A stretch of DNA of 64,000 nt, taken from assembly GCA_963749445.1 (NCBI GenBank), contig CAVVMJ010000007.1, positions 9,971 through 73,970 on the forward strand. Reading direction: 5' to 3'. Each line of letters opens with the position of its first letter. Within the stretch, counting starts at the first letter, position 1. The notes beneath the pieces were generated by a model. That model was not told where the DNA came from, did not search any database, and saw only the letters and a program-made list of their open reading frames with translations. Shown piece after piece: positions 574-47,730 of the stretch. Origin of the DNA: an uncultured bacterium (lineage in GTDB: Bacteria; Patescibacteriota; Doudnabacteria; UBA920). The position numbers and the translations under genes were made by a program.

Positions 574-819
574 ATCTGATATGTTTCGGTTTACTAACTA
601 TTTGATTAACCTCTTTTCTATTATATTAGAAACATAATAATTGGTCAAGTTACAAAATAATATGTGTAGTTTTTATGAGTGATATTATATTATTTGCCTT
701 ATATAAAAGGCTTTATTATTTAAATAGTTGATAAAAACCTTATTTTGTGCTATCATTGATGGTTAATTTCATAAAAGTACTTGTTTTGCTTGTGGTGGGC
801 AAAACCCTGTAAATTCATG

Positions 820-849
820 CCCCCAAAGTCTTTTTGGGGGTTTTTGTTT
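820..849 (+). terminator. rho-independent terminator-like hairpin with no obvious upstream gene
   Basis: CCCCCAAA (820-827) pairs with TTTGGGGG (833-840) around a 5-nt loop, followed by TTTTTGTTT. The T-tract exists only in + orientation. No + strand ORF lies between 640 and 820. Confidence 0.5.
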
Positions 850-1068
850 CTCCCAAACAATTCGTCTGGCATTACCACCACTAATGCTTAATGAATTGCC
901 GGGTAGAAACACAAGGAGTTATTTCCGATAAATCCGACTTTCTGATTTATCTGACTGATTCCGAATTTACCGGGTTTTCCTCTCCATAAGTCGTCCCGAC
1001 TTAATACATTCAATTTATACGGGACATTATGAGAGGGCGATGGCAATATCGCAGCGGCAATTTTATAA

Positions 1069-1797
1069 TTGAGCCGCAGACGTGCACGGCGTTTCCCGTG
1101 CGGGCACCTTAACAATCGAGAAAACCAAATGTTAAAACTAACGTCTGACCCGGTTCGGACCATGGGTCCGAACAATCACTCGGTTGTGATTGGCGTTACG
1201 ATTATCGGCGACAGAAGAACGCCGGTGGTGAACGCAGACGTGCTCCTAAAGCTGGACTCACGAGATTGGGGCACACGAAAGACAAACCGTAATGGCCAAA
1301 TCGAACCGACGGAAGTGACTGCCATCCCCGATGGCAGTTTCAATGGCAACGGCAAACTGACGGTGGAGGCAATCCGCGTCGGCGCACCGGGGGATATGGA
1401 TCGCAAGATTATTGACATCCCAATGCCTCAACCCAAACCCGAACCCGCGGCAGTGGAAAGCATTGCCGTGACCAACGCGACTGAAGGCATTGTCTTGTGC
1501 TCCGGTTTCAACGGAACGCTCGAGATCGCCTTAGGGTTTGAGCAGGGAAAGAAGTCTCGCCCTGTCAGACTGAAAGTTTCGGCCGACCACAGGGTAGATT
1601 TTGCCAACGATAAAACGGGCACGCCTTTAGGCGCGAACGTAAAGTCGTGCGCGGCAACTACTTCGGCAGACGGAGTGCTCCGTCTGCGCGTCAACTTCCT
1701 GGCCTGCGGTCGGGACGAAGTCGAGATCAAAGTATCGGTCCCGAACTCGTCCAAAACTGCTACCGCCAAACTCAAATACAAAATGTTCGAAACTTAG
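1069..1797 (+). CDS. hypothetical beta-rich protein, first gene of the G+C-rich block
   Basis: Maximal ORF starts at TTG 1069, with in-frame ATGs at 1129 and 1162. No SD and no signal peptide. Strand-like segments include VVIGVTIIGDRRTPVVNADVLLKL, GKLTVEAIRVG and RLRVNFLACGRDEVEIKVSV. No family recognised by eye. Confidence 0.55.
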   Translation: MSRRRARRFPCGHLNNRENQMLKLTSDPVRTMGPNNHSVVIGVTIIGDRRTPVVNADVLLKLDSRDWGTRKTNRNGQIEPTEVTAIPDGSFNGNGKLTVEAIRVGAPGDMDRKIIDIPMPQPKPEPAAVESIAVTNATEGIVLCSGFNGTLEIALGFEQGKKSRPVRLKVSADHRVDFANDKTGTPLGANVKSCAATTSADGVLRLRVNFLACGRDEVEIKVSVPNSSKTATAKLKYKMFET

Positions 1798-1810
1798 GAG
1801 AGATAGACTG

Positions 1811-2788
1811 ATGACTCGTCACACACCCACATCCGCTGCACCGCCGCCGGCACCACCCGTGGCAACCGCACCGGCACCCCTCGCACCCGCAGTCATCCCG
1901 GCACAGGCACCCCTCGCACCCGCCACAATTCCGATCCCGGGAGGACACCACCTTAGCGACAAAACTTTGGTGACACTCGACATCCTCGTTGGAATCATCA
2001 CCGCTCTGTTCGGCCACGAAATCGGCCGCCAAGCGGGAAAGTGGTTCCAGGGAGCCAAACGCGGCTTGCAACAGATCGGTACGCCCGGGACAGCAACCGG
2101 GGTCACCATCTCAGGCAACGCACCCGCTCACATCGACCCCACCATCCATAGCGCCCTCCTAGGCATTGGACCGTGGGACGAAGCCGCCACTGGCATGACG
2201 CTGGGTGCTGCTTTCCGGCGGGCATTTCAACGCTTGTTGGAAGCAACCGGCACGCCAATGGAAGCGCCCATCCGCGCCGCGCTTGCCCAGCTGGAACAGA
2301 CTGTCGGCTTCATCGCCAACAAGCTCAACCAGCACCAGCGCGACTTCCTCCGCGAAGTCGTCGGCAAGCTCAAGACGGCTGAACTCCAGAACCTCTTCTG
2401 GCAGGACTTGGTCCTCGCCAGCAAGGACGAAACCGGTTTCATAAACTTTATGAAGGCAATGGGGATCGTCCACGAGCCGAACGAACTCACCCAGGAACTC
2501 GCGATTGCTATTGCCTATGGTTTCGAGCAGGCGAATGTGATCCGGGTCCAAATGGTGACCACGCTCACAGTTCGCTACGACGCCCGTTCCGACGCTGCCA
2601 GACAGCGCTGGTTCACCGCACATGGGCAACTCGCTCAAGGGCAGCCCGTTCAACAAAACGCGACGCCGTTCTGGCGCCGCCGCACGATATGGCTCGTCAT
2701 TGGACTGGCCATTCTGGCAGTGGCTCTATTTCTAGGCCTGCCCCACATCTACCTCAACCTTCGAAATTGGGAATGGAGTTGGAAATGA
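1811..2788 (+). CDS. hypothetical Pro/Ala-rich protein with C-terminal TM anchor
   Basis: ATG 1811 is preceded by AGGAGA (1794-1799). Has an N-terminal tract SAAPPPAPPVATAPAPLAPAVIPAQAPLAPATIPIP, a hydrophobic segment LVTLDILVGIITALFG and a C-terminal TM TIWLVIGLAILAVALFLGL. Stop TGA 2786-2788 overlaps the next start (ATGA). Confidence 0.6.
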   Translation: MTRHTPTSAAPPPAPPVATAPAPLAPAVIPAQAPLAPATIPIPGGHHLSDKTLVTLDILVGIITALFGHEIGRQAGKWFQGAKRGLQQIGTPGTATGVTISGNAPAHIDPTIHSALLGIGPWDEAATGMTLGAAFRRAFQRLLEATGTPMEAPIRAALAQLEQTVGFIANKLNQHQRDFLREVVGKLKTAELQNLFWQDLVLASKDETGFINFMKAMGIVHEPNELTQELAIAIAYGFEQANVIRVQMVTTLTVRYDARSDAARQRWFTAHGQLAQGQPVQQNATPFWRRRTIWLVIGLAILAVALFLGLPHIYLNLRNWEWSWK

Positions 2789-4197
2789 CGAATCTAGGAA
2801 GAATCGGAAGGTCGATCGGCACAATGGTGTCCGGTCTGGAAGCGAGGATTTTGGGCTGGATTAGCGCTCATGTCTCGCTAACGCCGCGCGCCTTCGGCAC
2901 GTGGCTTGACGAACACAATTTCATCCGGCTGGAAAACGGCGCGCCTGTCACGGACTACGCCGGTTTCTTCCGCTGGACACGCAACTCGCTCCTGTCCCTG
3001 ATGGCACTGACTTTATTGCTCGAAGCCTACACCATAGTCATCGGGACATTCAACAACACCCCGCTCGGCCTCGGCATAAGCTTAGGTTTCGGTGTGGCAG
3101 TGTTCGGCATCGCGTCGGTGGTCTGGATTTGGAGGACCATCGGCCGCGTCAACGAAGGCTTGGCCTGGATTTTCACTCTGGCCACTGCCACCCTTGCCCT
3201 AATTGGCTTAGGGACTCCGACTTACCAGTACTACGCCGCGGGGAACCTCGCCAAACTTTCGGCAAAAGATATCCAAAATCTGATCGCGGCAGGCATTCCG
3301 CGAATCTGGGCTATGGCGGGCTTTTGCCTGCTCAGCCTGATCGTTCTTCCGCTTACCTGGATGACCACTCTGGGGCCCGCCCTGCTGTCCCTGGCTTTCG
3401 CCAAGACGGCAGAAGGTCTGGAAACGGCGTGGACAGAAATCCGGAAAATATTCTCGCACGATAGGGAAGTAGCGGAAGCCGCTGCGGAAAACCTCCGCAA
3501 GCGGACAGAAACACAGACCGGCCTGCTCATGCTCACATGGGCGATCCTGGCGCTGTTTACTCTCTCTATTATTCTCTCGTCCACGGTCTGGGGGCCTTTC
3601 GGCGGCTTGGTCATCGGTATGACCGCAATCGTGCCGGTATGGATACGACGGTGGAATATGTTCTTGGGAACTTTCTTAACCAAGGCACTCTACGGCGTAG
3701 CCACAGGAGGGCTGATCTTTATCTGCTTCCTGTACGGCCTTTCACTCTCGGCCTTGATGCTGATTCCCGACCAAATTTCGCTCAACGCACTGCTAGTAAT
3801 CAAGTGGGCCAGCTTCCTAATCGGTCTCGCTTCGGCAGTTGGAGTGTTGTTTACCTCCACCACGGCCAGCAAACAGAACGAACTGGAAGCCGGCATGGGG
3901 GAAATTCAGCCCTACACCAGAAAGGTCACGGGTTTCGGGACTGATGGGCAGCCGATTTTTGAAGCTGTTCACCCCAAACCGACGTCCTTCGCCTGGGTCA
4001 AGCCCACGGTCTTCGGTGCTGTTGTCATCGCTCTGGTTGCCTATGTGCACTACAACGGCAACCCGCTTTCCGGCACCAGCCCGCTCAAGCTGGTCGCTTA
4101 CACAATGGTTGTCGGCTTGATCCTTATTCTCTTTGGGATCTTTTCCGGCGGCAAGACGCAAGCCACCCCTACACAGGAGGTGCGCCATGACCACTAG
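2785..4197 (+). CDS. polytopic integral membrane protein, unknown family
   Basis: The track ORF starts at 2689, but ATG 2785 forms an ATGA overlap with the upstream stop and has GGAG at 2775-2778. About ten hydrophobic helices, e.g. LLSLMALTLLLEAYTIVIG, LGISLGFGVAVFGIASVVWIW, GLLMLTWAILALFTLSIILS, AYTMVVGLILILFGIF. Confidence 0.65.
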   Translation: MTNLGRIGRSIGTMVSGLEARILGWISAHVSLTPRAFGTWLDEHNFIRLENGAPVTDYAGFFRWTRNSLLSLMALTLLLEAYTIVIGTFNNTPLGLGISLGFGVAVFGIASVVWIWRTIGRVNEGLAWIFTLATATLALIGLGTPTYQYYAAGNLAKLSAKDIQNLIAAGIPRIWAMAGFCLLSLIVLPLTWMTTLGPALLSLAFAKTAEGLETAWTEIRKIFSHDREVAEAAAENLRKRTETQTGLLMLTWAILALFTLSIILSSTVWGPFGGLVIGMTAIVPVWIRRWNMFLGTFLTKALYGVATGGLIFICFLYGLSLSALMLIPDQISLNALLVIKWASFLIGLASAVGVLFTSTTASKQNELEAGMGEIQPYTRKVTGFGTDGQPIFEAVHPKPTSFAWVKPTVFGAVVIALVAYVHYNGNPLSGTSPLKLVAYTMVVGLILILFGIFSGGKTQATPTQEVRHDH

Positions 4198-4771
4198 GAA
4201 AAAGTGCATCGTCATCGGCACTTTAATCGTCGGCGCAGCAGCCGCTGTGCTCCTCGGCTATTACGTAGGCATTGGCAAGTACGCGCCCAGCGAACAGGCG
4301 GCCTACAACCGCCTTCACGCGGCGAACAACTGGGAGTTTGAGGGGAAAACAAGCGATGTTGAAGACAAGCAAGTTCCCCTCGCCGACAAGGTTGCTCAAG
4401 TCAACGTCCTAGCCGTGCAAAAACGCACTCTGGACGCGCAAATCGGCCACCCGGAGCTGACCAACTGCCGGACGCAACCCGGCAAGGACAAGGACGGCAA
4501 GCCAATACTGGTGTCCGAGCCGTGCCCCGGCGGCGTCTCCGCGGCAATCTACAGGGGCAAAGAGGCCGTCATAACGGTCCAGCTCCTAACTTACAGCAAC
4601 GACGAACTCCCGCTCAATGTCGCACCGACCCTCGTCGGCGACGAGCAACTCGGTGGGACAGCAGTACCCCTGGGCAACAACCGGTTCCGCGTGTCGGGAC
4701 TGGTGTATGACCAGGAAAAAATCGCCGGCGGATACAAGATTCGCGTTACGCCGGAAGGAGGAGGAAACTAA
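4187..4771 (+). CDS. N-terminally membrane-anchored protein, unknown family
   Basis: The track ORF starts at 4133. ATG 4187 has AGGAGG at 4175-4180 and overlaps the upstream stop (4195-4197). Anchor CIVIGTLIVGAAAAVLLGYYVG is followed by a soluble domain of about 170 aa. Confidence 0.6.
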   Translation: MTTRKKCIVIGTLIVGAAAAVLLGYYVGIGKYAPSEQAAYNRLHAANNWEFEGKTSDVEDKQVPLADKVAQVNVLAVQKRTLDAQIGHPELTNCRTQPGKDKDGKPILVSEPCPGGVSAAIYRGKEAVITVQLLTYSNDELPLNVAPTLVGDEQLGGTAVPLGNNRFRVSGLVYDQEKIAGGYKIRVTPEGGGN

Positions 4772-4896
4772 TGAGAGACAGGATCCCGTGGCCTCGATCG
4801 ACAATTGACAGTAATGATTGCCCGACGAGGTGTAGGGAACCGACTTGGACAGGAGAGAAAAACAAATAATTAAGCAATTATTTCTCTCCCGTCCGT

Positions 4897-4998
4897 TTTA
4901 AAAGCCGTCATAGATTAACCTTATCATTCTCCCCCAAATCATGAGGAGATACCCCGCCGAAGGCGGAACAGAGAGGTTAAACTATGGCGGCTTTTAAA
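4897..4998. other. compound stem-loop element (long rod plus two internal hairpins), candidate structured RNA
   Basis: TTTAAAAGCCGTCATAG (4897-4913) pairs with CTATGGCGGCTTTTAAA (4982-4998): 17 bp, with one G-U if read on +. TTAACCT (4915-4921) pairs with AGGTTAA (4974-4980). Inner hairpins are TCTCC/GGAGA (4928-4932 / 4945-4949) and CCGCC-GAA-GGCGG (4954-4966). Confidence 0.4.
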
Positions 4999-5000
4999 TT

Positions 5001-5027
5001 GGCCACATTCCATTTTGGAATGTGGCC
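5001..5027. terminator. hairpin between convergent genes
   Basis: GGCCACATTCC-ATTTT-GGAATGTGGCC, a perfect 11-bp stem between the + operon end (4771) and the minus pilin gene end (5061). No clean U-tract on either strand. Confidence 0.4.
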
Positions 5028-5060
5028 ATCCCGAACGAAGTGAGGAATCTATTTAACTTT

Positions 5061-5765
5061 TTAATTAGTTGTCTGGGTTGTAGTGCCCCGCTGTAAAATG
5101 TCGGAGGTCGTTAAGGTGGAGGTAATAATCGTAACAATGGAGTAAGCCAAAATTACCACTACCAAACCGACAATCGCGTTAATCAAAGCTTTTTTGCCTT
5201 TTTCCGACTGCTCCTCATTGCCCGCGGACGTAATGTACCAAAACCCGCCGACAATTAACGCGACCACCGCTATCAATCCGGAAAGAATCAATAAATACTT
5301 TATAACGACAAAAATCAAATCCACCAAGGTTCCCGCGCCTGCCGGGCTGCCGGCAGTATAAGTATTTGCCGGTACGCAAAAGCCGTTGATTTGCACCAGT
5401 CGGCTGTCGCCGCAAGGGCCACTCACCGTGGAAGGGATGGTTGGATTTAAGTTCACTCCTCCGCTATTTTGATACGCAGTACAAACCGGATCGTTCGGGT
5501 AGCTGTTGCAACAAGCTAACCCGGTTAAGCCCGAAGAGGCGCAGTCAACTTGCTTTGGCCCGACAATTCCGCCGGCAACGCAGGCACTTCCTGAATAAGT
5601 GCATCCCACTGTATTTGCGCACTGGATCGGATCAGCAATACCGGTACAATTATCGGCTTTAGCCAACAAAGGCCCACATGCCAAAAAACTAAAGGCCAAA
5701 GCAAAAACTGCAAAAAACACAAGTCCTGTCAGTTTATCAAATTGCAATTTGCTATTTTTTTTCAT
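5061..5765 (-). CDS. TrbC/VirB2-like (T4SS-pilin family) membrane protein with Cys-rich ectodomain
   Basis: Signal/anchor LTGLVFFAVFALAFSFLA, a Cys-rich N-terminal region, then the family core GGFWYITSAGNEEQSEKGKKALINAIVGLVVVILAY (two TM helices around a charged loop). Confidence 0.8.
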   Translation of the reverse strand: MKKNSKLQFDKLTGLVFFAVFALAFSFLACGPLLAKADNCTGIADPIQCANTVGCTYSGSACVAGGIVGPKQVDCASSGLTGLACCNSYPNDPVCTAYQNSGGVNLNPTIPSTVSGPCGDSRLVQINGFCVPANTYTAGSPAGAGTLVDLIFVVIKYLLILSGLIAVVALIVGGFWYITSAGNEEQSEKGKKALINAIVGLVVVILAYSIVTIITSTLTTSDILQRGTTTQTTN

Positions 5766-5774
5766 CGCGAAAAT

Positions 5775-6173
5775 TTAAACCCCGAGCCCGCCGGTAATGG
5801 TATTTTCAATGACCGTAATAATTGTATAAGCCAAAATAATAATCACAATGCCGATAATGGCATTGATTAAAGTTTTTTTGCCTTTTTCCGACTGCTCCTC
5901 GTTGCCGGACGCGGTAATGTAATAGTACCCGCCGATAATAATGAACAGCACGGCAATGGCGCCGGCAAACAGCAGCATCAGCTTAATGACATCATAAATC
6001 AAATGCGGCAAATCCGGCTCCTGGGACAGCCCGCCGATGCCGAACAAATCCCTTAAACCGCCTATGCCGGTCAGCCCCTGGCCGACCGCGCTGGTCTGGG
6101 CAAAAACCATAGCCGGCAAAAATAGCAAAGCGGAAGATATCCAGGCAAATATTTTTTTGACTGTTTGTTTCAT
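5775..6173 (-). CDS. TrbC/VirB2-like (T4SS-pilin family) membrane protein, short form
   Basis: Signal IFAWISSALLFLPAMVFA; core GGYYYITASGNEEQSEKGKKTLINAIIGIVIIILAY. Confidence 0.8.
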   Translation of the reverse strand: MKQTVKKIFAWISSALLFLPAMVFAQTSAVGQGLTGIGGLRDLFGIGGLSQEPDLPHLIYDVIKLMLLFAGAIAVLFIIIGGYYYITASGNEEQSEKGKKTLINAIIGIVIIILAYTIITVIENTITGGLGV

Positions 6174-6235
6174 AAGATTGTGCTTCTAATTATTAAAAGT
6201 TAATTAAACACCAATCAGAATGTCGGAATGTCGAA

Positions 6236-6298
6236 TTAATCGGAGGGGTCATTTCCAAAATTTTTCCAATTTGTTATTAACCGATTAATTTGTTCAGA
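6236..6298 (-). pseudogene. remnant of a four-helix-bundle (Avd / 23S rRNA IVS protein-like) gene, C-terminal about 20 codons only
   Basis: Minus-strand reading EQINRLITNWKNFGNDPSD* matches the C-terminus KQINRLITNWKNFRSDNSD* of the gene at 7966..8350. The adjacent non-coding stretch 6303-6350 matches 8362-8410. Confidence 0.6.
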
Positions 6299-6448
6299 AA
6301 CTAAGACCAATCTTTATTGCCTGTATACGTCCAACTACCCGACCTCCGATATTCTGATTTATCCGATTATTCCGACTTCTGATTCCAAACTCAGGGGCAG
6401 AACCAGTTCCGCCCGAGAGCCCGGAGCCGAAATTTTCGGCCGACCGTT

Positions 6449-6542
6449 TAGTGTCATTGCGAGGAGGCCGGGGCTTTGTCCGGCCGACGCGGCAATCCCT
6501 TCTTTTGATAAGATTGCTTCGGCTGCTACTGCAATGACACTA
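6449..6542. repeat. palindromic intergenic element (TAGTGTCATTGCGAGGAG...GCAATGACACTA)
   Basis: Terminal inverted repeats TAGTGTCATTGC / GCAATGACACTA. The internal GCGGCAATCCC...GATTGCTTCGGC motif is shared with the GAAATTGCGAGG family copies. Confidence 0.6.
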
Positions 6543-6548
6543 AATTTT

Positions 6549-6941
6549 TTAGCTGGATGACTTGGAAACCAAACCGGCCACCACGTTAACGATTACGTAG
6601 GACAAAAGAATAATGACAATACCGATAATGGCGTTAATGGCCGTGTTCTTGCCTTTTTCCGCGGTTTCCTCATTGCCGGCGGAGGTAATGTACCAGAAGC
6701 CGCCAATGATTAAGAACAACACGGCAATACCAAAGGCGATCCCTAGGAGCCAATTGATGATATTTTTAATCAACGCGTTAGCATCGGTAGTGCCGCAGTT
6801 TAATCCGGTTCCGGAGCAGTTAGGAGCGGTCAGCTGCGCCTGTCCAAAATGCAATGGGACAAACACAAAAATCGCCACCAACACCAGCTCAGCGACCACT
6901 AACCAATTGATTTTCTTGATTATTTGTTTCAAGCTGTTCAC
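6549..6941 (-). CDS. TrbC/VirB2-like (T4SS-pilin family) membrane protein, short form
   Basis: Signal WLVVAELVLVAIFVFVPLHFGQA; core GGFWYITSAGNEETAEKGKNTAINAIIGIVIILLSY. Confidence 0.8.
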   Translation of the reverse strand: MNSLKQIIKKINWLVVAELVLVAIFVFVPLHFGQAQLTAPNCSGTGLNCGTTDANALIKNIINWLLGIAFGIAVLFLIIGGFWYITSAGNEETAEKGKNTAINAIIGIVIILLSYVIVNVVAGLVSKSSS

Positions 6942-7061
6942 CCCCTCTCGTTTCCCTTTCCCTCTCCCTCGGGGAGAGGGCAGGGTGAGGGTTAATTTGC
7001 TGACATTATTATACTACGATTCCTAATTTTTGGCCATCTCTATCTTTTTGGCACACGGTTG

Positions 7062-7946
7062 TCATCTCGGGCTCGGCCCAGGCGTAGGATAGGTTAAATT
7101 CTTATTGGTGGCTTGGCCGCAAACAAAAGTTTGCACCTCCTGCCCGGGCTGTATGGGTTTCTGGGAAGCCATGGCCACGGCCCAGCCGCTTGCGTTTTGC
7201 GTATAGTTTGATTGCATATAATCCGCGCCGTCAACTTTTACGGTAAAAGAGATAGGACTTACATCGCCACATATCATCGCAATCTGTGCCAATAAATCTC
7301 TTTCGCCAGTAGAAATTGTGGAATTCACTAACAGGCCGGGATTTTTGGGCGTAATGACAATATTGTCCCCCAAATAATTTTTATTGGTGCTCCTAGCATT
7401 ACTGACATCCTGTAAACTGATGCCCGCGAACATCGGGTTGGAATAAGCATTGCCTCCTTGCGTACCCGCGACCGCCGGATTGGTGTTGGTATTAGCCGAC
7501 GGATTAGTTACTGCCGGGGTATTGCCATTGCCGGTACTGCCCCCGGTCAACCCGCTGGTTAGCAAATTAACCGTGATGCGGACTATGGCATAAGCCATAA
7601 TAATTACGACCAAACCGATAATCGCGCTGGTAATGGCCTTGCGGCCTTTTTCGGATTGCTCCTCGTTGCCCGCGGCCGTCAGGTACCAAAAACCGCCCAA
7701 AATTATGAACACTACGGCCACCAAGGCGGCAAATTCCAGCAATAACTGGATAACATTGCCCACGGCCTGCTGGGGCGTACATAGTTTGGGGAGGCCTTCA
7801 ATGGTATTTACCGGTTTGCCGTTAACGGTAATTTGAAACTGGCCAAAAAACTTGTTGCAATCAAATTGCGCCGACGCCGGCATGGCCAACAGCCAGCTGA
7901 AAAGGATTATCACCAGAAAAAATTGAAGCTTATGCGTTTTCTTCAT
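7062..7946 (-). CDS. TrbC/VirB2-like pilin-family protein with about 150-aa C-terminal extension
   Basis: Signal LQFFLVIILFSWLLAMPASA; core GGFWYLTAAGNEEQSEKGRKAITSAIIGLVVIIMAY. Followed by a Gly/Asn/Thr linker and a C-terminal domain (…ISFTVKVDGADYMQSNYTQNASGW…). Confidence 0.8.
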   Translation of the reverse strand: MKKTHKLQFFLVIILFSWLLAMPASAQFDCNKFFGQFQITVNGKPVNTIEGLPKLCTPQQAVGNVIQLLLEFAALVAVVFIILGGFWYLTAAGNEEQSEKGRKAITSAIIGLVVIIMAYAIVRITVNLLTSGLTGGSTGNGNTPAVTNPSANTNTNPAVAGTQGGNAYSNPMFAGISLQDVSNARSTNKNYLGDNIVITPKNPGLLVNSTISTGERDLLAQIAMICGDVSPISFTVKVDGADYMQSNYTQNASGWAVAMASQKPIQPGQEVQTFVCGQATNKNLTYPTPGPSPR

Positions 7947-7965
7947 AATTTTTCGGAAAATCGGA

Positions 7966-8350
7966 TTAATCGGAATTATCGGATCTGAAATTCTTCCAAT
8001 TGGTTATTAGTCGATTAATTTGCTTGGATACTATTTTATAGTGCTTGATTAGTGCTTCGCAGGTTTCGGGTTTAATATTCGGGAAACCAATGAGTTTAAT
8101 TTGTCTTAGATGGGTTATAACTTCATCCGAAGATCCCAACGCAATCCGCAAGTAACGCTTGAATTCTTTTTCCGAATTTCGTTTGGCAAAACCTTCGGTA
8201 ATTTGCGCCGGAACTCCTTTTGCCGCGCCCGTTAACTGGTCTTTTGTCCGAAACTCATTTTTTGGCAACAAATCTGCTAACCGGTAAATCGGCCTAATCA
8301 ACTTCATTGACCTTCTGATAAACCTCTAAATCCTCAACATCCTTTATCAT
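7966..8350 (-). pseudogene. four-helix-bundle protein (Avd / 23S rRNA intervening-sequence protein family), frameshifted near N-terminus
   Basis: Track ORF 7966..8307 reads ...GAAKGVPAQITEGFAKRNSEKEFKRYLRIALGSSDEVITHL. The family N-terminus MIKDVEDLEVYQK is encoded from ATG 8350 in another frame. One extra nt near 8308-8314 separates YQK from SMKLIRPIYRLA. Confidence 0.7.
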
Positions 8351-8394
8351 AATTAAAAAATTAAGACCGGTTTTTATTGCCTATATCCATCCAA

Positions 8395-9978
8395 CTATCC
8401 GACCTCCGATTTATCCGACATTCCGACATTCCGACATTCCGACATTCCGACATTCCGATTTATCCGAATCATACTCGTACTCTGGCTGACGTTTTGGATT
8501 TGCGTCTGCAAAATATATTGGACAATGGCAATGATGCTAAAGGACAGCAAAGCAATGGCTAAACCCAAAATGGCCCAGGTGATGGTCTTGCGCGCGGCCG
8601 TGACCGCCTCTTCGTTGCCCTGGGACATGACGTAGCGGAAGCCACCGATGACTATAAAAGCCACGGACCACAAAGCAATGACGCCCAAAAAGGCGCGCAT
8701 TATCAACAGCAAAGTCGCAGTCAAAGAATCCACGGGCAGGGGGTTATATAAACAATTGTTGGCATCGGGACCGGTACAATTAGCGGTGGAAGGAGTGCCG
8801 GCGGCAGAACATGTCCCTCCCGTGGCGGCTGAACATATCTGCCCGGAACTGCAAGTCCCCTGCTGCCCGGGACCTCCGGTACAAGAAGCACCAGGCGCGA
8901 CAGCCGCGGTCGGACTTACAGTAATATTAAAAGTAGTCGGTCCAACCCCATTTAACGCTGTGGTTCCGTCAGCGGCCACCGGAGTCGCGACAATTGAATT
9001 AACGCCGCTAATATTAAAACCGGAGTTTGCGTCCAAGGTAAAATTTTGGCTCCATTGTTTTGAACTGTCAAGTTTTACATCTTGATTACCCGCGTGCACC
9101 AATAAAATGCCGCCACTGGGCATATTGGTGGCAGAAATTGTTATGGTAGTTCCGGGCGCATAAGTACTATTGGCCGCAGGCGGCGATAAAACAACCGTCG
9201 GCGCGTTACCACTTGCGCCTGTGGCCTGAGTTAAAGTATAAGTTTGATCATAAATTCCCTTGCCGCTACTATCAGTCAGGACAAATCTTAACTTGTTATC
9301 CCCATTGCTAATAAATCCATTTGTGGCATTTACCGCTATTTGGTTGCCGCCTGAGTATATTGCAACAAAGTGATTATTATCGTTGACATAAATGTTTCCC
9401 TGCGCACCGGGCGGAAAATCTGTATAAGTAATTTTTAAGGTATCGCCAATTTTAGCGGTAGGCGGTGAAACTGTAAAGTTAAACCCCTCTCCTAAAGGAT
9501 TATTAGAAACATTTAGCTGTTTTCCCCAATTTTTTGTATCTCCCAAGTCACCCAAACTTGAATGAACATCCAAATAGTAAGGAAAAATGTAATCTGACCC
9601 TGACTTGGTAACATCACTCCAACGGGAAAAATTTGATAAATTAAAAGGGCAGTCAATATTAACATTGTTAGGAACAGGCGGGCTGACCTGGCACCTGGCC
9701 AAATACCAAGGGCTACCACTGATAGGGGCAATAAAATCAAACTCCATGATATTATTGGCACTACAGCCGTTTGTATTAACTATGGTATTAAATTTTGCCG
9801 AATCGCCTTTATAAATTCTGGTTGGAACTGCCTCCATAGAGGTAATTTGCACCTGGCAAATTCCTGCGGCTATTGCAGATTTTATGAATCCACGCCCAAA
9901 AACCCCGGCCAGCATCAATAAAATTATGACGCTGCTTTTTAGTGCGCTTAATATTTTATTGTACTTGTTCTGCGTCAT
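8395..9978 (-). CDS. TrbC/VirB2-like pilin-family protein with about 400-aa N-terminal ectodomain
   Basis: Signal SSVIILLMLAGVFG, a beta-rich repeated ectodomain and a Cys/Gly/Thr linker (CTGGPGQQGTCSSGQICSAATGGTCSAAG). Core is GGFRYVMSQGNEEAVTAARKTITWAILGLAIALLSF. The last about 25 codons run into the CCGACATT tandem repeat. Confidence 0.75.
   Translation of the reverse strand: MTQNKYNKILSALKSSVIILLMLAGVFGRGFIKSAIAAGICQVQITSMEAVPTRIYKGDSAKFNTIVNTNGCSANNIMEFDFIAPISGSPWYLARCQVSPPVPNNVNIDCPFNLSNFSRWSDVTKSGSDYIFPYYLDVHSSLGDLGDTKNWGKQLNVSNNPLGEGFNFTVSPPTAKIGDTLKITYTDFPPGAQGNIYVNDNNHFVAIYSGGNQIAVNATNGFISNGDNKLRFVLTDSSGKGIYDQTYTLTQATGASGNAPTVVLSPPAANSTYAPGTTITISATNMPSGGILLVHAGNQDVKLDSSKQWSQNFTLDANSGFNISGVNSIVATPVAADGTTALNGVGPTTFNITVSPTAAVAPGASCTGGPGQQGTCSSGQICSAATGGTCSAAGTPSTANCTGPDANNCLYNPLPVDSLTATLLLIMRAFLGVIALWSVAFIVIGGFRYVMSQGNEEAVTAARKTITWAILGLAIALLSFSIIAIVQYILQTQIQNVSQSTSMIRINRNVGMSECRNVGMSDKSEVG
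8415..8460. repeat. tandem octamer (CCGACATT) x5 plus partial copy
   Basis: ccgacatt repeated five times from 8415 to 8454, then ccgatt. It forms the 3' tail of the 527-aa pilin ORF. Confidence 0.9.
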
Positions 9979-9990
9979 ACTTTTTGATTT

Positions 9991-10485
9991 TTACTTCCCT
10001 GCCGGCGCGATGCCTTCTTCCACGTTATAGGAATTTGGGACGCAGGTATAACTGCTCGGGTTGGTCAAAGTAATGTAAGTCCACGGACTGGCAAAATCAA
10101 TTTTGCATTTGGACATTAATAGAATATTAACTGCGGTATTGACGAACATATACGCGGCCACGACCACAAAAAATCCTATGAATACCTGGGTTAACGCTCC
10201 CTTGTGTTTGGTAATGTCCTCCTCGTTGCCGCTGCTCGCCACCAGCCAAAAAGAATGTTCAACAATCTTGTAAACCGCGTAAAGCCCGGCCATGGCTATC
10301 AGCCAGTTGGTCACCCGCGCCACCCCGTAAAAAGCGTCCAAAACTCCGCAGGGATGATTATCCGTCGGCCCGCTGCCGCCGCAGGGAACTAGTCCAGCGG
10401 CATGGACGAAAAATGGCATAGAAAAAGCTATTGTTATTGTTAAGATTACCGCAACTAAAAGCCTTTTTTGTTTCAAGATAATCAT
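9991..10485 (-). CDS. TrbC/VirB2-like (T4SS-pilin family) membrane protein, divergent member
   Basis: Signal LLVAVILTITIAFSMPFFVHA; core FWLVASSGNEEDITKHKGALTQVFIGFFVVVAAY. First gene of the minus-strand pilin array. Confidence 0.7.
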   Translation of the reverse strand: MIILKQKRLLVAVILTITIAFSMPFFVHAAGLVPCGGSGPTDNHPCGVLDAFYGVARVTNWLIAMAGLYAVYKIVEHSFWLVASSGNEEDITKHKGALTQVFIGFFVVVAAYMFVNTAVNILLMSKCKIDFASPWTYITLTNPSSYTCVPNSYNVEEGIAPAGK

Positions 10486-10542
10486 TTTTCTACAATAACT
10501 CTACCACATTTTTGGCAAATTTTCAATTTTTGTCGCTTTGTT

Positions 10543-10619
10543 GAAATTGCGAGGGCGTGCATCCGACCGAAGCAATCCCCAAAAAATAACCGGATTGCTC
10601 CGGCCACCCTCGCAATTTC
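10543..10619. repeat. palindromic element, GAAATTGCGAGG...CCTCGCAATTTC family
   Basis: GAAATTGCGAGGG...GAAGCAATCCCC...GGATTGCTCCGG...CCCTCGCAATTTC. Same termini and core as the copies at 28170, 43436 and 48538. Confidence 0.75.
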
Positions 10620-10727
10620 ATAAAAAACACAACTTTGCAAAAACAACAACTAGTTTCCCAATTTCCAATTTTTCTGTCGTTTTGGCTTTGCATTGGAAAT
10701 TAGTAATTGGGTATTGGAAATTCGCCA

Positions 10728-12024
10728 TCACTGCCCCGCAGTGATTGCGGCCGCTTGTTGTTCGGCTTGACTAAGCGAATCCTGCGCGCTCAACCCGTTT
10801 AAAATTACGTTATCAATCGCCTTGCCGAAAATGTTGTCCATCTTGGCCTGGTCCGGGCGGTAAAAAGATTTAGCGGTAAGGTTGGCGTTGGCAAACACGC
10901 CGATGTCCGGGTCCGGAATTTGCAGCTCAATAAGGTCGCGGCGCGAAGACGGCACTTTGTTTTGCGCGTAATATTGGTCCAGGCTGTCCTTGCTCGTTAA
11001 AAATTTTACCAAATCCCAGGCTGCGGCCAGTTCTTACTCTGTTTGCTCACCACCTCTCCCCAGTAGTTGGCAAAATTCACGGATGGGTTATTCAAATCCG
11101 GCTGCGGCACGCCGGCCACGTCAAAATTCAAATTGGGAGATTTTTGTAAGATGGTGGCGCGACTATAGGAATAGCTGTACAAAAACGCGGCGCGGCCGTT
11201 GGCAAAAGCGTCAATGGAATAATCGCTTTGGGCGTTCCAGTTGTAATTAGGGCTGGAAGGATTGGCAAAAGATGTGTAAAAACTCAAAGCACTGACTCCG
11301 GGATTGGTAAAATTGCCGTTTTTCTGAACCGGGTCGGCAAAAGTCGGCTGCATGCCGGTATAAGGCATGGTGCCCTGCTGCAGCATCATCAAATACAAAA
11401 TATCCACCGCGCGATTGACATTGGCGTTAGTACCTAATGCTACGCCGCTTTGCAAAAAATAACCGTGGCTGTCCTGCCGCTTGATTTTCTGCACATCCGT
11501 TGCCAGCTCGCTCCAGGTCTTCGGCGGCGTGGCAATCCCCGCGCTGCCCATCATATCCTTGTTATAATACAGCGCCAAAGAATCCACGGACATGGCCGCG
11601 CCGTAAATTTTTCCTGGCTGGTAAAATCGTTGACCACCGCGTCCACAAAGGTATCCTTAAAATCCTTCAAAGTAAAAATGGAAGCCGGCGAAGGCGTGGC
11701 TTTGTCCAAATACTGCGGCAGCCAGGCGTTGTTGATGGAAAAAATATCCGGCCCGTTGCCTGCGGCCAAAGCGTTCAGCAAATCCTGCTGGTAAGTGTTA
11801 ATGTCTTTTTTGGTGTAGACGATGGTAATATTGGGATTTTTTTGGCGGTAAGCGTCGAGCAGCGGCTGCAGGCTTTGGCTGTCCATAAACGGATTCCACA
11901 TGGTCAGGGTAATATTCCGCTGAACCGTAGTTGTCCCTCCCCCGCCGCATCCCGCCGCAAGCAAACTAAGGCCGATGGCGGATAAAAGCAATTTTGGTTT
12001 GAAAAATTTTCTTTTTGGTTTCAT
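10728..12024 (-). pseudogene. ABC transporter extracellular solute-binding lipoprotein (family 1), two frameshifts
   Basis: Three track ORFs (11551..12024, 11006..11593, 10728..11012) are consecutive parts of one SBP. Lipobox is LSLLAAGCGG. Junction 1 ...NDFTSQEKFT / PGKIYGAAMSVDSLALYYNKD lies near 11615; junction 2 ...VVSKQSKN / ELAAAWDLVKFLTSKDSL lies near 11030. Confidence 0.8.
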
Positions 12025-34548: not shown

Positions 34549-35707
34549 CTATACCATCGCCCTCGCCACCGCTGCCACCGCGGATTTATCCAAAGGGCTC
34601 GGAATAATGTTTGCCGGATTTAGTTTGGTTACGCAACCCGCCAGGTTTTTGGCCGCCCTAATGAGCATCGGCTGGGTAATTTGTTTTATCTGATTGTCCA
34701 GCGCGCCGCGGAAGATTCCCGGAAAAACCAAAACATTGTTAATCTGGTTGGGAAAGTCCGACCGGCCCGTGGCCACAATAAAAGCTCCGGCCCGCTTGGC
34801 CGAAACGGGATTTATTTCCGGATCCGGATTGGCCATGGCAAAAATTACCGGGTCTTTGGCCATGCTTTTAACCATCCGCTGGCTTAAAATATTCGGCGCG
34901 CTCACGCCAATGAAAACATCGGCTGATTTTAAAGCGCCTGATAAATCCCCGGCAATTTTACAGCCGGTCAGTCTTGCCAGCTGGCGTTTGTGCCAGTTCA
35001 AGTCTTTGCGATGACGGCCGATGATTCCCCTACTATCACATACGATAACATGCCGGAAACCGTATTTCATCAGCAATACGGTAATGGCCGTGCCTGCCGC
35101 GCCTGCACCGCAGATGACCACTTTGGTTTTTCCAGCGGTCTGACGTTTTAGCTTTAGCGCGTTAATCAGCCCGGCCAAAACCACCACGGCCGTGCCGTGC
35201 TGGTCATCGTGCATCACCGGTATATCCAGTTCCGCTTTGAGCCGCCGCTCTATTTCAAAACAGTGCGGCGCCGAAATATCCTCCAAGCTTATGCCGCCAA
35301 ACGCCGGCGTGATATTTTTGATGGTGCTGATAACGGCTTCGGTATCCTGCGTGTCTAGGCAAATGGGGACAGGCGTCAACTCCAGCCAACCGTTTAAATA
35401 AAACACACTTGCCTTCCATAACCGGCAACGCCGCCAAAGGCCCCAAATTCCCCAATCCCAAAACCGCGCTGCCGTCTGTCACCACGGCTACGGTATTTTT
35501 TTTGATGGTATAAATTTTGGCCAGAGATTTATCTTGAAAGATTTTTTGGCAGACATCGGCCACGCCCGGGGTATAAGCCAAAGAAAGATCCCTACGGTTT
35601 CGCAGGGGTATTTTGCTTTTTATTTCCAGTTTCCCGCCGTGCTTTTTGTGCAGGGCTAAAGATTGTTTGCCGAGGTCGTTCATTTTTTTTATCAACACCG
35701 TGCTCAT
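34549..35707 (-). CDS. NAD(P)-dependent malic enzyme, interrupted by a 1-nt frameshift as sequenced
   Basis: The N-terminal part ends ...PVMEGKCVLFKRLAGVDA, then goes out of frame. The C-terminal part resumes VPICLDTQDTEAVISTIKNITPAFGGISLEDISAPHCFEIERRL. Extra nt near 35368-35375. Confidence 0.85.
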
Positions 35708-47100: not shown

Positions 47101-47730
47101 ATGGAAATAAAAACAAAATCTGGATTTACCTTAATAGAATTATTGGTGGTCATAGCAATTATCGGCCTGCTGGCATCGGTGGTGTTGGTGGCGTTAAATA
47201 ATGCCAGAAACAAGGCAAAATCGGCACTAGCCTTGACTAATCAAAGACAACTGCAAAAAGCAGTGGAAATGTACAATCTTGATGTGGGCTTTTACCCGCC
47301 AGACGTAAACAGAGGATGGGATCCGGGTATTGCCAAGCCTCTTCCTTCAAATAAGGATCTGGGATTTGATTGTAATATTGACGCAACTGCCTGCACCTGC
47401 CCCAGCACTGATTTTCCCCCATGCTCCATCACACCATTTCCTTTACCGGCAGACTGGATGAATCAAGTAAAAAATAACTGGAAAGGTCCTTATGTGGCTG
47501 TCTGGCCAAATACGGCACCCTGGGGGGGCAAGTATGACTTCAATAATTGGAATGTACCTACGGTACGATATGGCTGCACCGTGCCGGCCGGCATTTACAT
47601 AGGCACCCAAAGAAACTACGATGATAGTAATCCTATTCCCCAAGATCAGGAACAATGGTTTTTGGATCAAAAAATGGACGCGGATAATTGCCTAAACGGC
47701 GAGGTTCAACTTATGCTTATTAAATATTAG
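47101..47730 (+). CDS. type IV pilin / T2SS pseudopilin-like protein
   Basis: Prepilin cleavage/methylation motif KSGFTLIELLVVIAIIGLLASVVLVAL, followed by a Cys-containing globular domain. Confidence 0.85.
   Translation: MEIKTKSGFTLIELLVVIAIIGLLASVVLVALNNARNKAKSALALTNQRQLQKAVEMYNLDVGFYPPDVNRGWDPGIAKPLPSNKDLGFDCNIDATACTCPSTDFPPCSITPFPLPADWMNQVKNNWKGPYVAVWPNTAPWGGKYDFNNWNVPTVRYGCTVPAGIYIGTQRNYDDSNPIPQDQEQWFLDQKMDADNCLNGEVQLMLIKY

What the first reader, a model, noticed from the sequence alone, without database searches (positions are those of the whole stretch)
5061..10485. Six tandem TrbC/VirB2-like pilin paralogues with radically different ectodomains
All six minus-strand genes share the core G-G-F/Y-x-Y-x-T/S-x-G-N-E-E-x(6-8)-K/R flanked by two TM helices. 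The regions attached to that core differ:
- three have almost nothing attached (130-164 aa);
- one has a Cys-rich 150-aa N-terminal domain;
- one has a beta-rich N-terminal domain of about 400 aa plus a Cys/Gly/Thr linker;
- one has a 150-aa C-terminal extension.

This looks like a repertoire of major-pilin-like and tip/adhesin-like subunits built on one membrane scaffold. No VirB4/VirD4-type ATPase is present in the window.
Basis: partly seen in the sequence, partly recalled or inferred. Interest (0 to 1): 0.6.

Follow-up and report, generated by a model that had tools for sequence, protein, structure and literature searches.

The report
Six-gene VirB2-like pilin array, Patescibacteria
This is a real cluster of six divergent secretion-system "pilin" genes in an ultrasmall (Candidate Phyla Radiation, Doudnabacteria-type) bacterium, three of them carrying large, fast-evolving surface domains; such pilin arrays were described in these bacteria in 2023-2025, so it is a well-preserved new example rather than a new kind of system.

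Summary
Six minus-strand ORFs at 5061-10485 all score above Pfam's threshold for PF18895 (T4SS_pilin), and one also passes for TrbC/VirB2. Each has a signal peptide, a two-helix hydrophobic hairpin and a GNEE...K loop.

Three are bare (130-164 aa). P1 has a Cys-rich N-domain. P5 has three predicted Ig-like beta-sandwiches plus a disordered Cys/Gly/Thr linker. P4 has a C-terminal beta-sandwich.

The host is a Patescibacteria (Doudnabacteria-type) chromosome. No VirB4/VirD4/VirB6 was recognised in the 64 kb.

About 30 related species genomes carry the same ordered array (P6-P5-P4-P3-P2-P1) at the same housekeeping site, between ComM/GalU/SBP and FtsH. None has a VirB4-like ATPase candidate within 10 kb.

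Against the closest complete genome, hairpin cores are 69-89% identical. Ectodomains are only 28-32% identical, while housekeeping proteins are 80-86%.

P3 is the most conserved and has its own conserved promoter-like element, so it is the likely main subunit.

Tandem arrays of divergent VirB2-like pilins in Patescibacteria are already published (PMC10633639, PMC12102498, PMC12857230).

Verdict: new member of a known kind, with modest interest. Pilus formation and the link to a T4SS remain inferred.

The parts
9991..10485 (-). P6: first gene of the array and the most divergent pilin-like paralogue (164 aa). It has a signal peptide, a short Cys-Cys N-segment, the hairpin, and a conserved ~40-aa C-terminal tail with two Cys.
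   Evidence: PF18895 scores 30.0 bits against a cutoff of 26.6. Orthologues of 148-188 aa hold the first position in most related arrays.
8395..9978 (-). P5: pilin hairpin (aa 416-489) preceded by three predicted beta-sandwich (Ig-like) domains (about aa 44-356) and a disordered Cys/Gly/Thr linker (aa 359-415). The last ~25 codons are supplied by the repeat of the inserted cassette.
   Evidence: PF18895 scores 28.3 bits. The AF2 model has pLDDT 83-94 in the beta domains. Foldseek hits are MG/Ig/FnIII-type tandem domains at 4e-8. The ectodomain has only 12 relatives among 1.84e9 representatives, and 6 of them are pilin fusions. The changed tail is seen by comparison with L003.
7953..8470 (-). 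Inserted cassette carrying a four-helix-bundle / 23S rRNA-IVS-protein gene (7966-8307). It is flanked by CGGA-rich inverted repeats and is not a pilin.
   Evidence: PF05635 scores 62.9 bits and TIGR02436 69.9 bits. Flank sequences were read. The cassette is absent from the orthologous arrays L003 and L007. It is present at another junction in L014 and L018. The flanks pair in the MFE fold, but only weakly, z = -1.6.
7062..7946 (-). P4: pilin hairpin (aa 58-132) with a small disulfide N-segment, a low-complexity linker (aa 132-165) and a C-terminal ~120-aa alpha+beta sandwich domain with two conserved Cys.
   Evidence: PF18895 scores 38.5 bits. The AF2 model has pLDDT 80-90 in the C-domain. No significant PDB fold match was found; the best was CBM56/Ig-like at 7e-3. 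Homologues conserve C226 and C276. The C-domain is absent in the L007 orthologue of 146 aa.
7008..7036 (-). Promoter-like element in front of P3. Its -10 box (7013-7008), within an extended -10 TRTRGTATAAT, is conserved in six of six related genomes and followed by the conserved RBS/start GAGAGGGGGTGAACAGCTTG.
   Evidence: Consensus scan gives 10 of 12 matches. The alignment of P4-P3 intergenic regions shows GTATAAT and the RBS as invariant columns amid unconserved sequence.
6549..6941 (-). P3: bare pilin and the most conserved paralogue, so the candidate main subunit. The probable true start is TTG at 6932 (127 aa).
   Evidence: PF18895 scores 53.8 bits and PF04956 TrbC 28.9 bits, both above threshold. 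The core is 89% identical to the L003 orthologue. The search returned 539 homologues, and the best 120 are 62-87% identical. The start site is argued.
6215..6350 (-). Deleted remnant of the same four-helix-bundle cassette: both flanks and the gene's last ~22 codons, with about 320 nt missing. It lies in the 375-nt gap between P3 and P2.
   Evidence: Direct repeats D3 and D4 and inverted repeat I2. tblastn matches the cassette protein's C-terminus at 6239-6304. The sequence was read. It folds as a hairpin with z = -2.1.
5775..6173 (-). P2: bare pilin (132 aa), with no Cys.
   Evidence: PF18895 scores 51.3 bits and NF045849 40.4 bits against a cutoff of 40. The exact protein is found on an independent Logan contig.
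5061..5765 (-). P1: last gene of the array. It has a Cys-rich (11 Cys) ~105-aa N-terminal domain in front of the hairpin.
   Evidence: PF18895 scores 42 bits and NF045849 40.6 bits. Orthologues in the last position are 176-411 aa with N-domains of 95-331 aa. The core is 71% identical to L003 and the rest 30%.
4897..4998 (.). Inverted repeat (25-nt arms, 92% complementary, 52 nt apart) just downstream of P1. It is a possible end-of-operon hairpin.
   Evidence: the repeat finder pair I4. Function was not tested.

Best explanation
The locus is a chromosomal operon of six paralogous VirB2/TrbC-like pilins of the Patescibacteria type (Pfam PF18895). The host is a Doudnabacteria-type CPR bacterium.

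**Shown**
- Each product has a Sec-type signal peptide and a hairpin of two hydrophobic helices. The helices are joined by the conserved GNEE-x3-K-x-K loop.
- The array, its gene order and the six paralogue classes are conserved across the lineage.

**Inferred topology**
- The loop faces the cytoplasm.
- The N-terminal domains (P1, P5) and the C-terminal domains (P4, and the P6 tail) lie outside the cell. This fits their Cys content and their Ig-like folds.

**Inferred mechanism**
- After insertion and signal-peptide cleavage, the hairpins are extracted from the membrane. A monoderm-type (MPF-FATA-like) T4SS encoded elsewhere in the genome assembles them into a surface stalk or pilus.
- P3, possibly with P2, is the bulk subunit. 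P3 is the most conserved paralogue and has its own conserved promoter-like element and ribosome-binding site.
- The domain-bearing paralogues P1, P4 and P5 are incorporated sparsely or at the tip. They display fast-evolving adhesin-like domains that contact the host bacterium on which these epibionts live.
- The six classes are old and specialised rather than shuffled for antigenic variation.
For: **Family**
- PF18895 is above its gathering score in six of six proteins, and PF04956 in one.
- The NCBIfam 'pilin-like conjugal transfer protein' model NF045849 is at its cutoff for P1 and P2.
- Homologues are named pilin or TrbC/VirB2.

**Architecture**
- Hydropathy shows a signal segment plus two TM segments.
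- AF2 predicts helical hairpins at 416-489 in P5 and 58-132 in P4.

**Ectodomains**
- P5 has three beta-sandwiches resembling MG/Ig/FnIII domains.
- Sequence relatives of the P5 ectodomain are other pilin fusions or Big_2/Big_7/PKD surface proteins.
- P4 has a C-terminal sandwich with a conserved Cys pair.

**Lineage and conservation**
- Related loci are titled Candidatus Doudnabacteria or Patescibacteria.
- About 30 genomes share ComM...SBP-[array]-FtsH-SMC with the same gene order.
- Orthology is one-to-one in three genomes.

**Rates against L003**
- Cores are 69-89% identical and ectodomains 28-32%. ComM, GalU and RecA are 80-86%.

**P3**
- It has a conserved extended -10 box and RBS, and its homologues are 62-87% identical.

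**Literature**
- Pilin arrays of 2-11 genes occur in 383 Patescibacteria assemblies (PMC12102498).
- The pilin series in the S. epibionticum T4SS cluster is essential for epibiotic growth (PMC10633639; PMC12857230).
- A genome of GTDB class Doudnabacteria is listed as VirB4-positive (column header).
Against: - No VirB4, VirD4 or VirB6 was recognised in the 64-kb window.
- No VirB4-like ATPase candidate lies within 10 kb of the array in any of about 30 relatives. This was a screen of ORFs of at least 450 aa for a Walker A motif, not an HMM search. The link to a T4SS therefore rests on family membership and on other CPR classes.
- I could not locate VirB4 in the closest complete genome with the tools available.
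- No T4SS pilus has been seen in any Patescibacterium; the review only calls it a possibility.
- Known VirB2/TraA pilins are about 70-80 aa when mature and pack tightly. N-terminal domains of 100-400 aa have no precedent in solved conjugative pili.
- Some homologues are fused to a peptidoglycan-binding domain. That fits a wall-embedded protein better than a long filament.
Confidence: 0.6

Rival explanations
1. The hairpin serves only as a membrane anchor or oligomerisation module. The six proteins would be T4SS-independent surface or cell-wall-spanning proteins that display Ig-like or Cys-rich domains, or form a small ring or pore. They would never be extruded as a pilus.
For: - The array sits at a fixed housekeeping site, unlinked to virB4, in the window and in about 30 relatives.
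- Ectodomains reach 400 aa.
- Some homologues are fused to PG_binding_1.
- A seventh, lone pilin gene sits amid housekeeping genes in the relative genome.
- No solved pilin is matched by sequence.
- No CPR T4SS pilus has been observed.
Against: - The family is homologous to TrbC/VirB2 by Pfam.
- In other Patescibacteria the pilin genes lie inside or next to T4SS clusters in 1135 of 1948 assemblies. There they are essential together with the T4SS.
- Three of the six proteins display nothing, which is odd for a pure anchor.
Confidence: 0.27
2. The array is an antigenic- or phase-variation repertoire. One expressed pilin gene would be replaced or recombined with the others, as proposed for multi-copy virB2 in Bartonella and Anaplasma.
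For: - The genes are multiple, divergent, tandem paralogues.
- The 2025 survey raises this analogy.
- The ectodomains evolve fast.
Against: - All six are full-length with their own signal peptides.
- The order and identity of the six classes are conserved one-to-one across many species.
- DNA identity between core copies is only 64-70% over 187 nt (D1). I judge that too low for efficient homologous recombination.
- No recombinase or invertible element is present.
Confidence: 0.05
3. The small two-TM proteins are holin-like, bacteriocin-like or toxin-like membrane proteins, or remnants of an integrated conjugative element. They would not be a host-encoded organelle.
For: - The proteins are small and have two TM segments with a charged loop.
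- A GC-rich four-gene island lies next to the array.
- There are weak NCBIfam hits to Mollicutes ICE proteins.
Against: - No relaxase, integrase, coupling protein or phage gene was found.
- The array is syntenic in about 30 species between housekeeping genes.
- The array's GC content is close to the window's, 0.46 against 0.47.
- The neighbouring island is variable and is absent in L007, while the array remains.
Confidence: 0.03

Closest known systems
Patescibacteria VirB2-like pilin arrays (Quinonero-Coronel et al. 2025, PMC12102498; the S. epibionticum ML1 T4SS cluster SEML1_0006-0019, which includes a pilin series, Wang et al. 2023, PMC10633639)
   Same: - Same Pfam family (PF18895, with PF04956).
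[quoted passage not shown] The published arrays have 2-11 genes, a mean identity of 25% and a maximum of 54%. Here there are six genes at 19-51% identity.
- Chromosomal location, with no relaxase.
- A monoderm CPR host.
   Different: - Here the array is unlinked to virB4. It occupies a fixed housekeeping site (ComM/GalU/SBP | FtsH) throughout a Doudnabacteria-type lineage, a class the survey's main text does not mention.
- Three of the six subunits carry large folded ectodomains. The passages of these papers that I read do not mention such fusions.
- The six classes show one-to-one orthology across species.
Canonical conjugative pilins VirB2 / TrbC / TraA (Agrobacterium T-pilus, RP4, F)
   Same: - Signal peptide, then two hydrophobic helices joined by a short charged loop.
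- P3 passes the TrbC/VirB2 Pfam threshold.
   Different: - No detectable match to solved pilins by sequence profile.
- The mature proteins are longer. They have an extra 25-35-aa, often disulfide-bonded, N-segment and in three cases domains of 100-400 aa.
- The host is a monoderm.
- There are no adjacent virB3 or virB4 genes.
Mollicutes ICE 'pilin-like conjugal transfer protein' (NCBIfam NF045849, Mbov_0395/MMCAP2_0565) and the larger neighbouring families NF045848 and NF045889
   Same: - P1 and P2 reach the curated cutoff of NF045849 (40.6 and 40.4 bits against 40), and three others hit below it.
- P2 weakly matches the hairpin-like N-terminal part of the ~300-aa families. That is the same 'hairpin plus C-terminal extension' layout as P4.
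   Different: - Scores are at or below the cutoff.
- Those proteins are encoded inside mobile ICEs next to VirB4-type genes, whereas this array is a fixed chromosomal operon.
Multi-copy virB2 in Bartonella and Anaplasma T4SS
   Same: Tandem amplification and divergence of the T4SS pilin gene, thought to diversify host-surface interactions (as cited in PMC12102498).
   Different: - Those organisms are diderm pathogens, and their copies are near-identical in architecture and small in size.
- Here the paralogues are ancient, ordered and architecturally distinct.

Membership tests
Pfam PF18895 T4SS_pilin | HMM score at or above the gathering score (26.6 bits) | tested here: met
   All six pass, at 42.0, 51.3, 53.8, 38.5, 28.3 and 30.0 bits.
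Pfam PF04956 TrbC/VirB2 pilin | HMM score at or above the gathering score (27.9 bits) | tested here: inconclusive
   P3 scores 28.9 bits and passes. P1, P2 and P4 score 16-19 bits, below threshold. P5 and P6 give no hit. Many P3 orthologues carry both domains in precomputed Pfam.
VirB2-type pilin (architecture) | Cleavable N-terminal signal or leader, then two hydrophobic helices joined by a short charged loop | tested here: met
   Hydropathy segments. AF2 helical hairpins in P5 and P4. Cleavage itself was not tested.
VirB2-type pilin (architecture) | Small mature size (about 70-80 aa in VirB2/TraA/TrbC, from my own knowledge) with no globular domain | tested here: not met
   The bare paralogues would be about 95-135 aa when mature. 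P1, P4 and P5 carry domains of 105, 160 and ~380 aa.
VirB2-type pilin (structure) | Detectable similarity to solved conjugative pilins | tested here: not met
Type IV secretion system (genetic unit) | Pilin gene clustered with virB4 and other T4SS genes | tested here: not met
   None was recognised among the window ORFs of at least 150 aa that were scanned with Pfam or NCBIfam. In the related loci, the only Walker-A ORFs of at least 450 aa are ComM, FtsH and SMC.
Type IV secretion system (genetic unit) | VirB4 present somewhere in the same genome | not testable with these tools
Literature Table S1 lists a genome of GTDB class Doudnabacteria (GCA_003446815.1) as VirB4-positive, and 2417 of 3035 Patescibacteria assemblies have VirB4.
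Type IV secretion system (function) | Subunits polymerise into an extracellular pilus | not testable with these tools
   No experiment was possible, and no pilus has yet been reported for any CPR T4SS.
Patescibacteria VirB2 array (PMC12102498) | Two to eleven PF18895/PF04956 genes in tandem or separated by one non-pilin gene, highly divergent (mean 25%, maximum 54% identity), in a Patescibacteria genome | tested here: met
   Six genes with one intervening non-pilin gene, and core identity of 19-51%. The Patescibacteria origin follows from homologue and locus titles, the CPR-type gene content and the 23S-IVS protein gene.
NCBIfam NF045849 Mbov_0395 pilin-like conjugal transfer protein | Score at or above the curated cutoff (40 bits) | tested here: inconclusive
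   P1 scores 40.6 and P2 40.4, just passing. P3 scores 33.3, P4 27.8 and P5 21.3, and P6 gives no hit.

The most novel reading that the evidence does not exclude
In Doudnabacteria-type CPR bacteria the VirB2 hairpin has become a general polymerisable anchor for modular adhesins. A fixed set of six specialised subunits would build one heteropolymeric host-contact organelle. In it, Ig-like, Cys-rich and beta-sandwich domains are fused directly to pilin subunits instead of being supplied by a separate VirB5-type tip protein. P3 would form the shaft, and the other paralogues would form the base, decoration or tip. The operon is genetically uncoupled from the T4SS motor. That would be the first conjugative-type pilus with built-in globular adhesin domains, and it would be in a monoderm.
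Probability: 0.3. Interest if true: 0.6.

Novelty: new member of a known kind. Interest (0 to 1): 0.3.

Why it matters
Patescibacteria make up a large share of uncultured bacterial diversity and appear to live attached to host cells. In the one species tested, their T4SS and its pilin series are essential for epibiotic growth, yet nobody knows what structure the pilins build.

This locus adds three things to what I found in the cited papers:
- a lineage-wide, strictly ordered six-paralogue array at a housekeeping site away from virB4;
- clear modular fusion of the pilin hairpin to fast-evolving Ig-like, Cys-rich and beta-sandwich ectodomains, which are gained and lost between species;
- a candidate main subunit (P3) with its own conserved promoter-like element.

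These give concrete, testable predictions about stoichiometry and about which parts contact the host. The general phenomenon is already published, so the value is incremental.

Tried and rejected
**Locating the source contig and a cognate VirB4**
- Exact-protein look-ups of P5, of ComM and of P0001 (the database copy identical to P5) found nothing.
- Look-ups of P2 and of the 325-aa island protein (1811-2788) returned only a 5.7-kb Logan contig. The 76-kb source contig was not delivered.

**Contig-length fingerprint idea**
- I looked in homologue tables for further pilins on the 1,211,450-bp genome that might sit beside VirB4.
- Only array members turned up.
- The second locus on that genome (L031) is a lone pilin among GyrA, S1 and PRPP synthase genes, with no T4SS genes.

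**Genome scan**
- The first attempt with the 18-sequence alignment failed because no conserved stretch was found. It was not counted.
- The narrower alignment worked, but it only reaches Doudnabacteria-like P1-P4-type cores.

**Fold searches**
- afdb50 was not available.
- Foldseek gave no significant match for the P4 C-domain.

**DGR hypothesis**
- The cassette protein belongs to a family that also hits Pfam bAvd in one related locus. From my own knowledge, Avd is a DGR accessory protein.
- No template/variable repeat pair was found in 1-16 kb. No reverse transcriptase appeared among the ORFs scanned. I rejected the idea.

**Adjacent GC-rich island**
- It has no Pfam, NCBIfam or PHROG hit.
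- I left it unexplained.

**Lipoprotein reading of P1**
- I rejected a lipobox at 'FLAC'. The -3 residue does not fit, and the Cys is not conserved in L003.

Full report
**1. What is there**

ORF listing confirms six minus-strand genes at the coordinates given:

| Gene | Coordinates | Length |
|---|---|---|
| P1 | 5061-5765 | 234 aa |
| P2 | 5775-6173 | 132 aa |
| P3 | 6549-6941 | 130 aa |
| P4 | 7062-7946 | 294 aa |
| P5 | 8395-9978 | 527 aa |
| P6 | 9991-10485 | 164 aa |

- A six-frame motif scan finds the GNEE core in exactly these six ORFs in the 64-kb window.
- The core is also recovered as a six-copy DNA repeat family.
- Each protein has an N-terminal hydrophobic signal-like segment and two strong hydrophobic segments flanking GNEE. 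P6 is the exception, because its first helix falls below the hydropathy threshold.
- Pairwise identity over the ~95-aa core alignment is 19-51%.
It is off by one residue in spacing, and P6 lacks the GG.
- A Logan assembly of run ERR10755942 reproduces window 781-6481 at 100% identity, so the sequence is not an assembly oddity.

**2. Family**

- All six exceed the gathering score of Pfam PF18895 (T4SS_pilin), at 28-54 bits against 26.6.
- P3 also exceeds that of PF04956 (TrbC/VirB2). P1, P2 and P4 hit it below threshold.
- NCBIfam NF045849, the Mollicutes ICE 'pilin-like conjugal transfer protein', is reached at its cutoff by P1 and P2.
- Database homologues are named 'pilin [Candidatus Doudnabacteria bacterium]' or 'TrbC/VirB2 family protein [Patescibacteria group bacterium]'.
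- The link to experimentally characterised pilins therefore rests on the Pfam models.

**3. Context**

- The rest of the window is ordinary chromosome: ComM, GalU, RecA, RodZ, FtsK, fumarase, Mur ligases, IF-2, a P-type ATPase and tRNAs.
- No VirB4, VirD4 or VirB6 was recognised. The FtsK is a full-length chromosomal FtsK with alpha and gamma domains.
- The gene between P5 and P4 (7966-8307) is a four-helix-bundle / 23S rRNA-IVS protein. From my own knowledge this is a common CPR feature.
- The closest relatives are MAGs titled Candidatus Doudnabacteria or Patescibacteria. Some TPA MAGs are labelled Saccharibacteria, which I take to be a mislabel.

**4. Comparison with related genomes**

The closest complete-looking genome is GCA_964474825.1, a single 1.21-Mb contig.
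- It has the same neighbourhood: RodZ-RecA-exonuclease-ComM-GalU-SBP-[pilins of 166, 465, 297, 127, 126 and 227 aa]-FtsH.
- A third genome has pilins of 159, 358, 146, 122, 135 and 236 aa.
- Alignment shows one-to-one orthology of the six classes.

A pattern scan of one genome per GTDB species returned 38 loci.
- About 30 share ComM...SBP-[array]-FtsH-SMC.
- With a core HMM, most arrays have 5-6 genes in the same order:

| Position | Length range | Appended domain |
|---|---|---|
| P6 | 148-188 aa, with two outliers of 369 aa | short C-terminal tail |
| P5 | 286-527 aa, sometimes absent | N-domain of 195-437 aa |
| P4 | 128-422 aa | C-extension of 0 or 138-259 aa |
| P3 | 128-141 aa | none |
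| P2 | 126-155 aa | none |
| P1 | 176-411 aa | N-domain of 95-331 aa |

- In none of these loci is there a Walker-A ORF of at least 450 aa other than ComM, FtsH and SMC.
- The array is therefore a lineage-wide fixture that is genetically uncoupled from virB4.
- The complete genome also has a seventh, lone pilin about 48 kb away among housekeeping genes.

**5. Evolutionary rates**

| Compared with GCA_964474825.1 | Identity |
|---|---|
| ComM, GalU, RecA | 80-86% |
| Six 80-aa hairpin cores | 69-89% (P3 highest) |
| Non-core parts of P5, P4, P1 | 28%, 32%, 30% |

- The P5 ectodomain has only 12 detectable relatives among 1.84 billion representative proteins.
- Six of those relatives are pilin fusions. 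The rest are mostly Big_2/Big_7/PKD surface proteins.
- The P4 C-domain is absent from the orthologue in L007.
- Other homologues carry a peptidoglycan-binding domain instead.
- The picture is a conserved scaffold with modular, fast-changing exposed parts.

**6. Predicted structures**

P5 (pLDDT 73 overall, 83-94 in the domains):
- A signal helix, then three beta-sandwiches at about 44-160, 167-252 and 261-356.
- A disordered Cys/Gly/Thr linker at 359-415, then a helical hairpin at 416-489.
- Foldseek matches tandem MG/Ig/FnIII-type domains at 4e-8 with low TM-scores, so this is a generic adhesin-like fold.

P4 (pLDDT 69.5):
- A hairpin at 58-132, a disordered linker, and a C-terminal alpha+beta sandwich with pLDDT 80-90.
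- No significant PDB match was found.
- Two Cys in the C-domain and two in the short N-segment are conserved.

With a cleaved signal peptide, the N- and C-terminal appendages would both lie outside the cell and the GNEE-K loop would face the cytoplasm. This is inference.

**7. Expression signals**

- Intergenic gaps are 12 nt (P6-P5), 448 nt (cassette), 120 nt (P4-P3), 375 nt (cassette remnant) and 9 nt (P2-P1).
- In the P4-P3 spacer, an extended -10 box (TRTRGTATAAT) and the RBS/start GAGAGGGGGTGAACAGCTTG are invariant in six of six genomes. The surrounding sequence is not conserved (consensus scan).
- P3 therefore probably has its own promoter, and it probably starts at TTG 6932 (127 aa).
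- Together with its conservation, this makes P3 the best candidate for the bulk subunit. This is inference.

**8. Literature**

- Wang et al. [quoted passage not shown] They are essential by Tn-seq and unusual for a Gram-positive-type T4SS (PMC10633639).
- Quinonero-Coronel et al. 2025 surveyed 3,035 genomes with PF18895 and PF04956 (PMC12102498).
  - VirB2-like pilins occur in 1,948 VirB4-positive assemblies, and lie near virB4 in 1,135 of them.
  - There are 441 arrays of 2-11 genes, with a mean identity of 25% and a maximum of 54%.
  - The arrays are most abundant in Microgenomatia and Saccharimonadia.
- A 2025 review highlights the six divergent pilins of S. epibionticum. It treats a pilus only as a possibility (PMC12857230).
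- Table S1 of the survey lists a genome of GTDB class Doudnabacteria as VirB4-positive.
- The passages I read do not discuss ectodomain fusions or the fixed, virB4-unlinked Doudnabacteria locus.

**9. Interpretation**

- Best: a specialised six-subunit VirB2-like set, assembled by a T4SS encoded elsewhere into a host-contact stalk or pilus. P3, possibly with P2, would form the shaft, and P1, P4 and P5 would display adhesin-like domains. Family membership is near certain. The assembly mechanism is inferred. Overall confidence is 0.6.
- Main rival (0.27): the hairpin is only an anchor or oligomerisation module for surface proteins, independent of any T4SS.
- Antigenic variation by recombination is unlikely. 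The classes are conserved one-to-one, all copies are complete, and the copies share only 64-70% DNA identity.
- An ICE or phage remnant is excluded by the synteny.

**10. Verdict**

This is a new member of a known kind, with some new detail: lineage-wide order, modular ectodomains and the P3 promoter-like element. Interest is 0.3.

Noticed in passing
window 7953-8470 (full copy) and 6215-6350 (remnant); L014 9335-9652, L018 9387-9713, L042 9320-9461: A small cassette has inserted into the pilin array at least twice here. It carries a four-helix-bundle / 23S rRNA-IVS-protein gene flanked by CGGA-rich inverted repeats. One copy is intact, between P5 and P4. The other has lost about 320 nt, between P3 and P2. 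In three other genomes it sits at a different junction, P4|P3. It rewrote the last ~25 codons of P5. Its flanks pair in the MFE fold, as in rRNA intervening sequences, but the z-scores are weak (-1.6 and -2.1). Why it favours pilin-array spacers is unexplained.
   Followed up: partly
window 1069-4771 (+ strand): A four-gene island of GC 0.57, against 0.47 for the window, lies between P1 and the position where FtsH lies in relatives. It encodes 242-, 325-, 502- (polytopic membrane) and 212-aa proteins with no Pfam, NCBIfam or PHROG hit. Homologues of the first three proteins (39-43% identity) occupy the same spot in L012. L003 holds an unrelated GC-rich four-gene set there, and L007 has nothing. 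The site behaves as an insertion hot spot of unknown function.
   Followed up: partly
window 10728-12024 (- strand): The ABC-type solute-binding protein gene next to the array is split over three reading frames by two frameshifts. Relatives have an intact 432-aa gene. This is either a pseudogene or indel errors. The malic enzyme also appears split, into 34549-35406 and 35255-35707, so ORF boundaries in this assembly deserve caution.
   Followed up: partly
window 7008-7036 and 6930-6960 (- strand): An invariant extended -10 box (TRTRGTATAAT) and the RBS/start GAGAGGGGGTGAACAGCTTG lie upstream of P3 in six of six genomes, within otherwise unconserved spacer. This suggests an internal promoter and a TTG start at 6932. 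The deposited annotation of the source contig gives a 116-aa product instead.
   Followed up: partly
L031 9839-10237 (GCA_964474825.1, about 1,005.8 kb): The closest complete genome has a seventh, solitary PF18895 pilin (132 aa) among GyrA, S1, Orn/DAP decarboxylase and PRPP synthase genes, about 48 kb from the array. No equivalent is present in the window.
   Followed up: partly
window 47101-47730 (+ strand): A type IV pilus-type (pseudo)pilin gene with an N-terminal methylation motif and a T2SSG domain. It belongs to a different surface-filament system from the T4SS-type pilins of the finding.
   Followed up: no
P1-P5 proteins (window 5061-9978): Five of the six proteins hit the NCBIfam model for the Mollicutes ICE 'pilin-like conjugal transfer protein', two of them at its cutoff. 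P2 also weakly hits the larger ICE and pLS20 transmembrane families. This hints that monoderm (MPF-FATA-type) conjugation systems do have VirB2-like relatives. That bears on the published suggestion that CPR pilins were co-opted from diderm systems.
   Followed up: no
window 10530-10632 and 6440-6548: The SBP-P6 spacer is about 240 nt here, against 36 nt in L003, and contains a 26-nt-arm inverted repeat. A second inverted repeat (GTGTCATTGC...GCAATGACAC) lies just downstream of P3. Neither was examined further.
   Followed up: no
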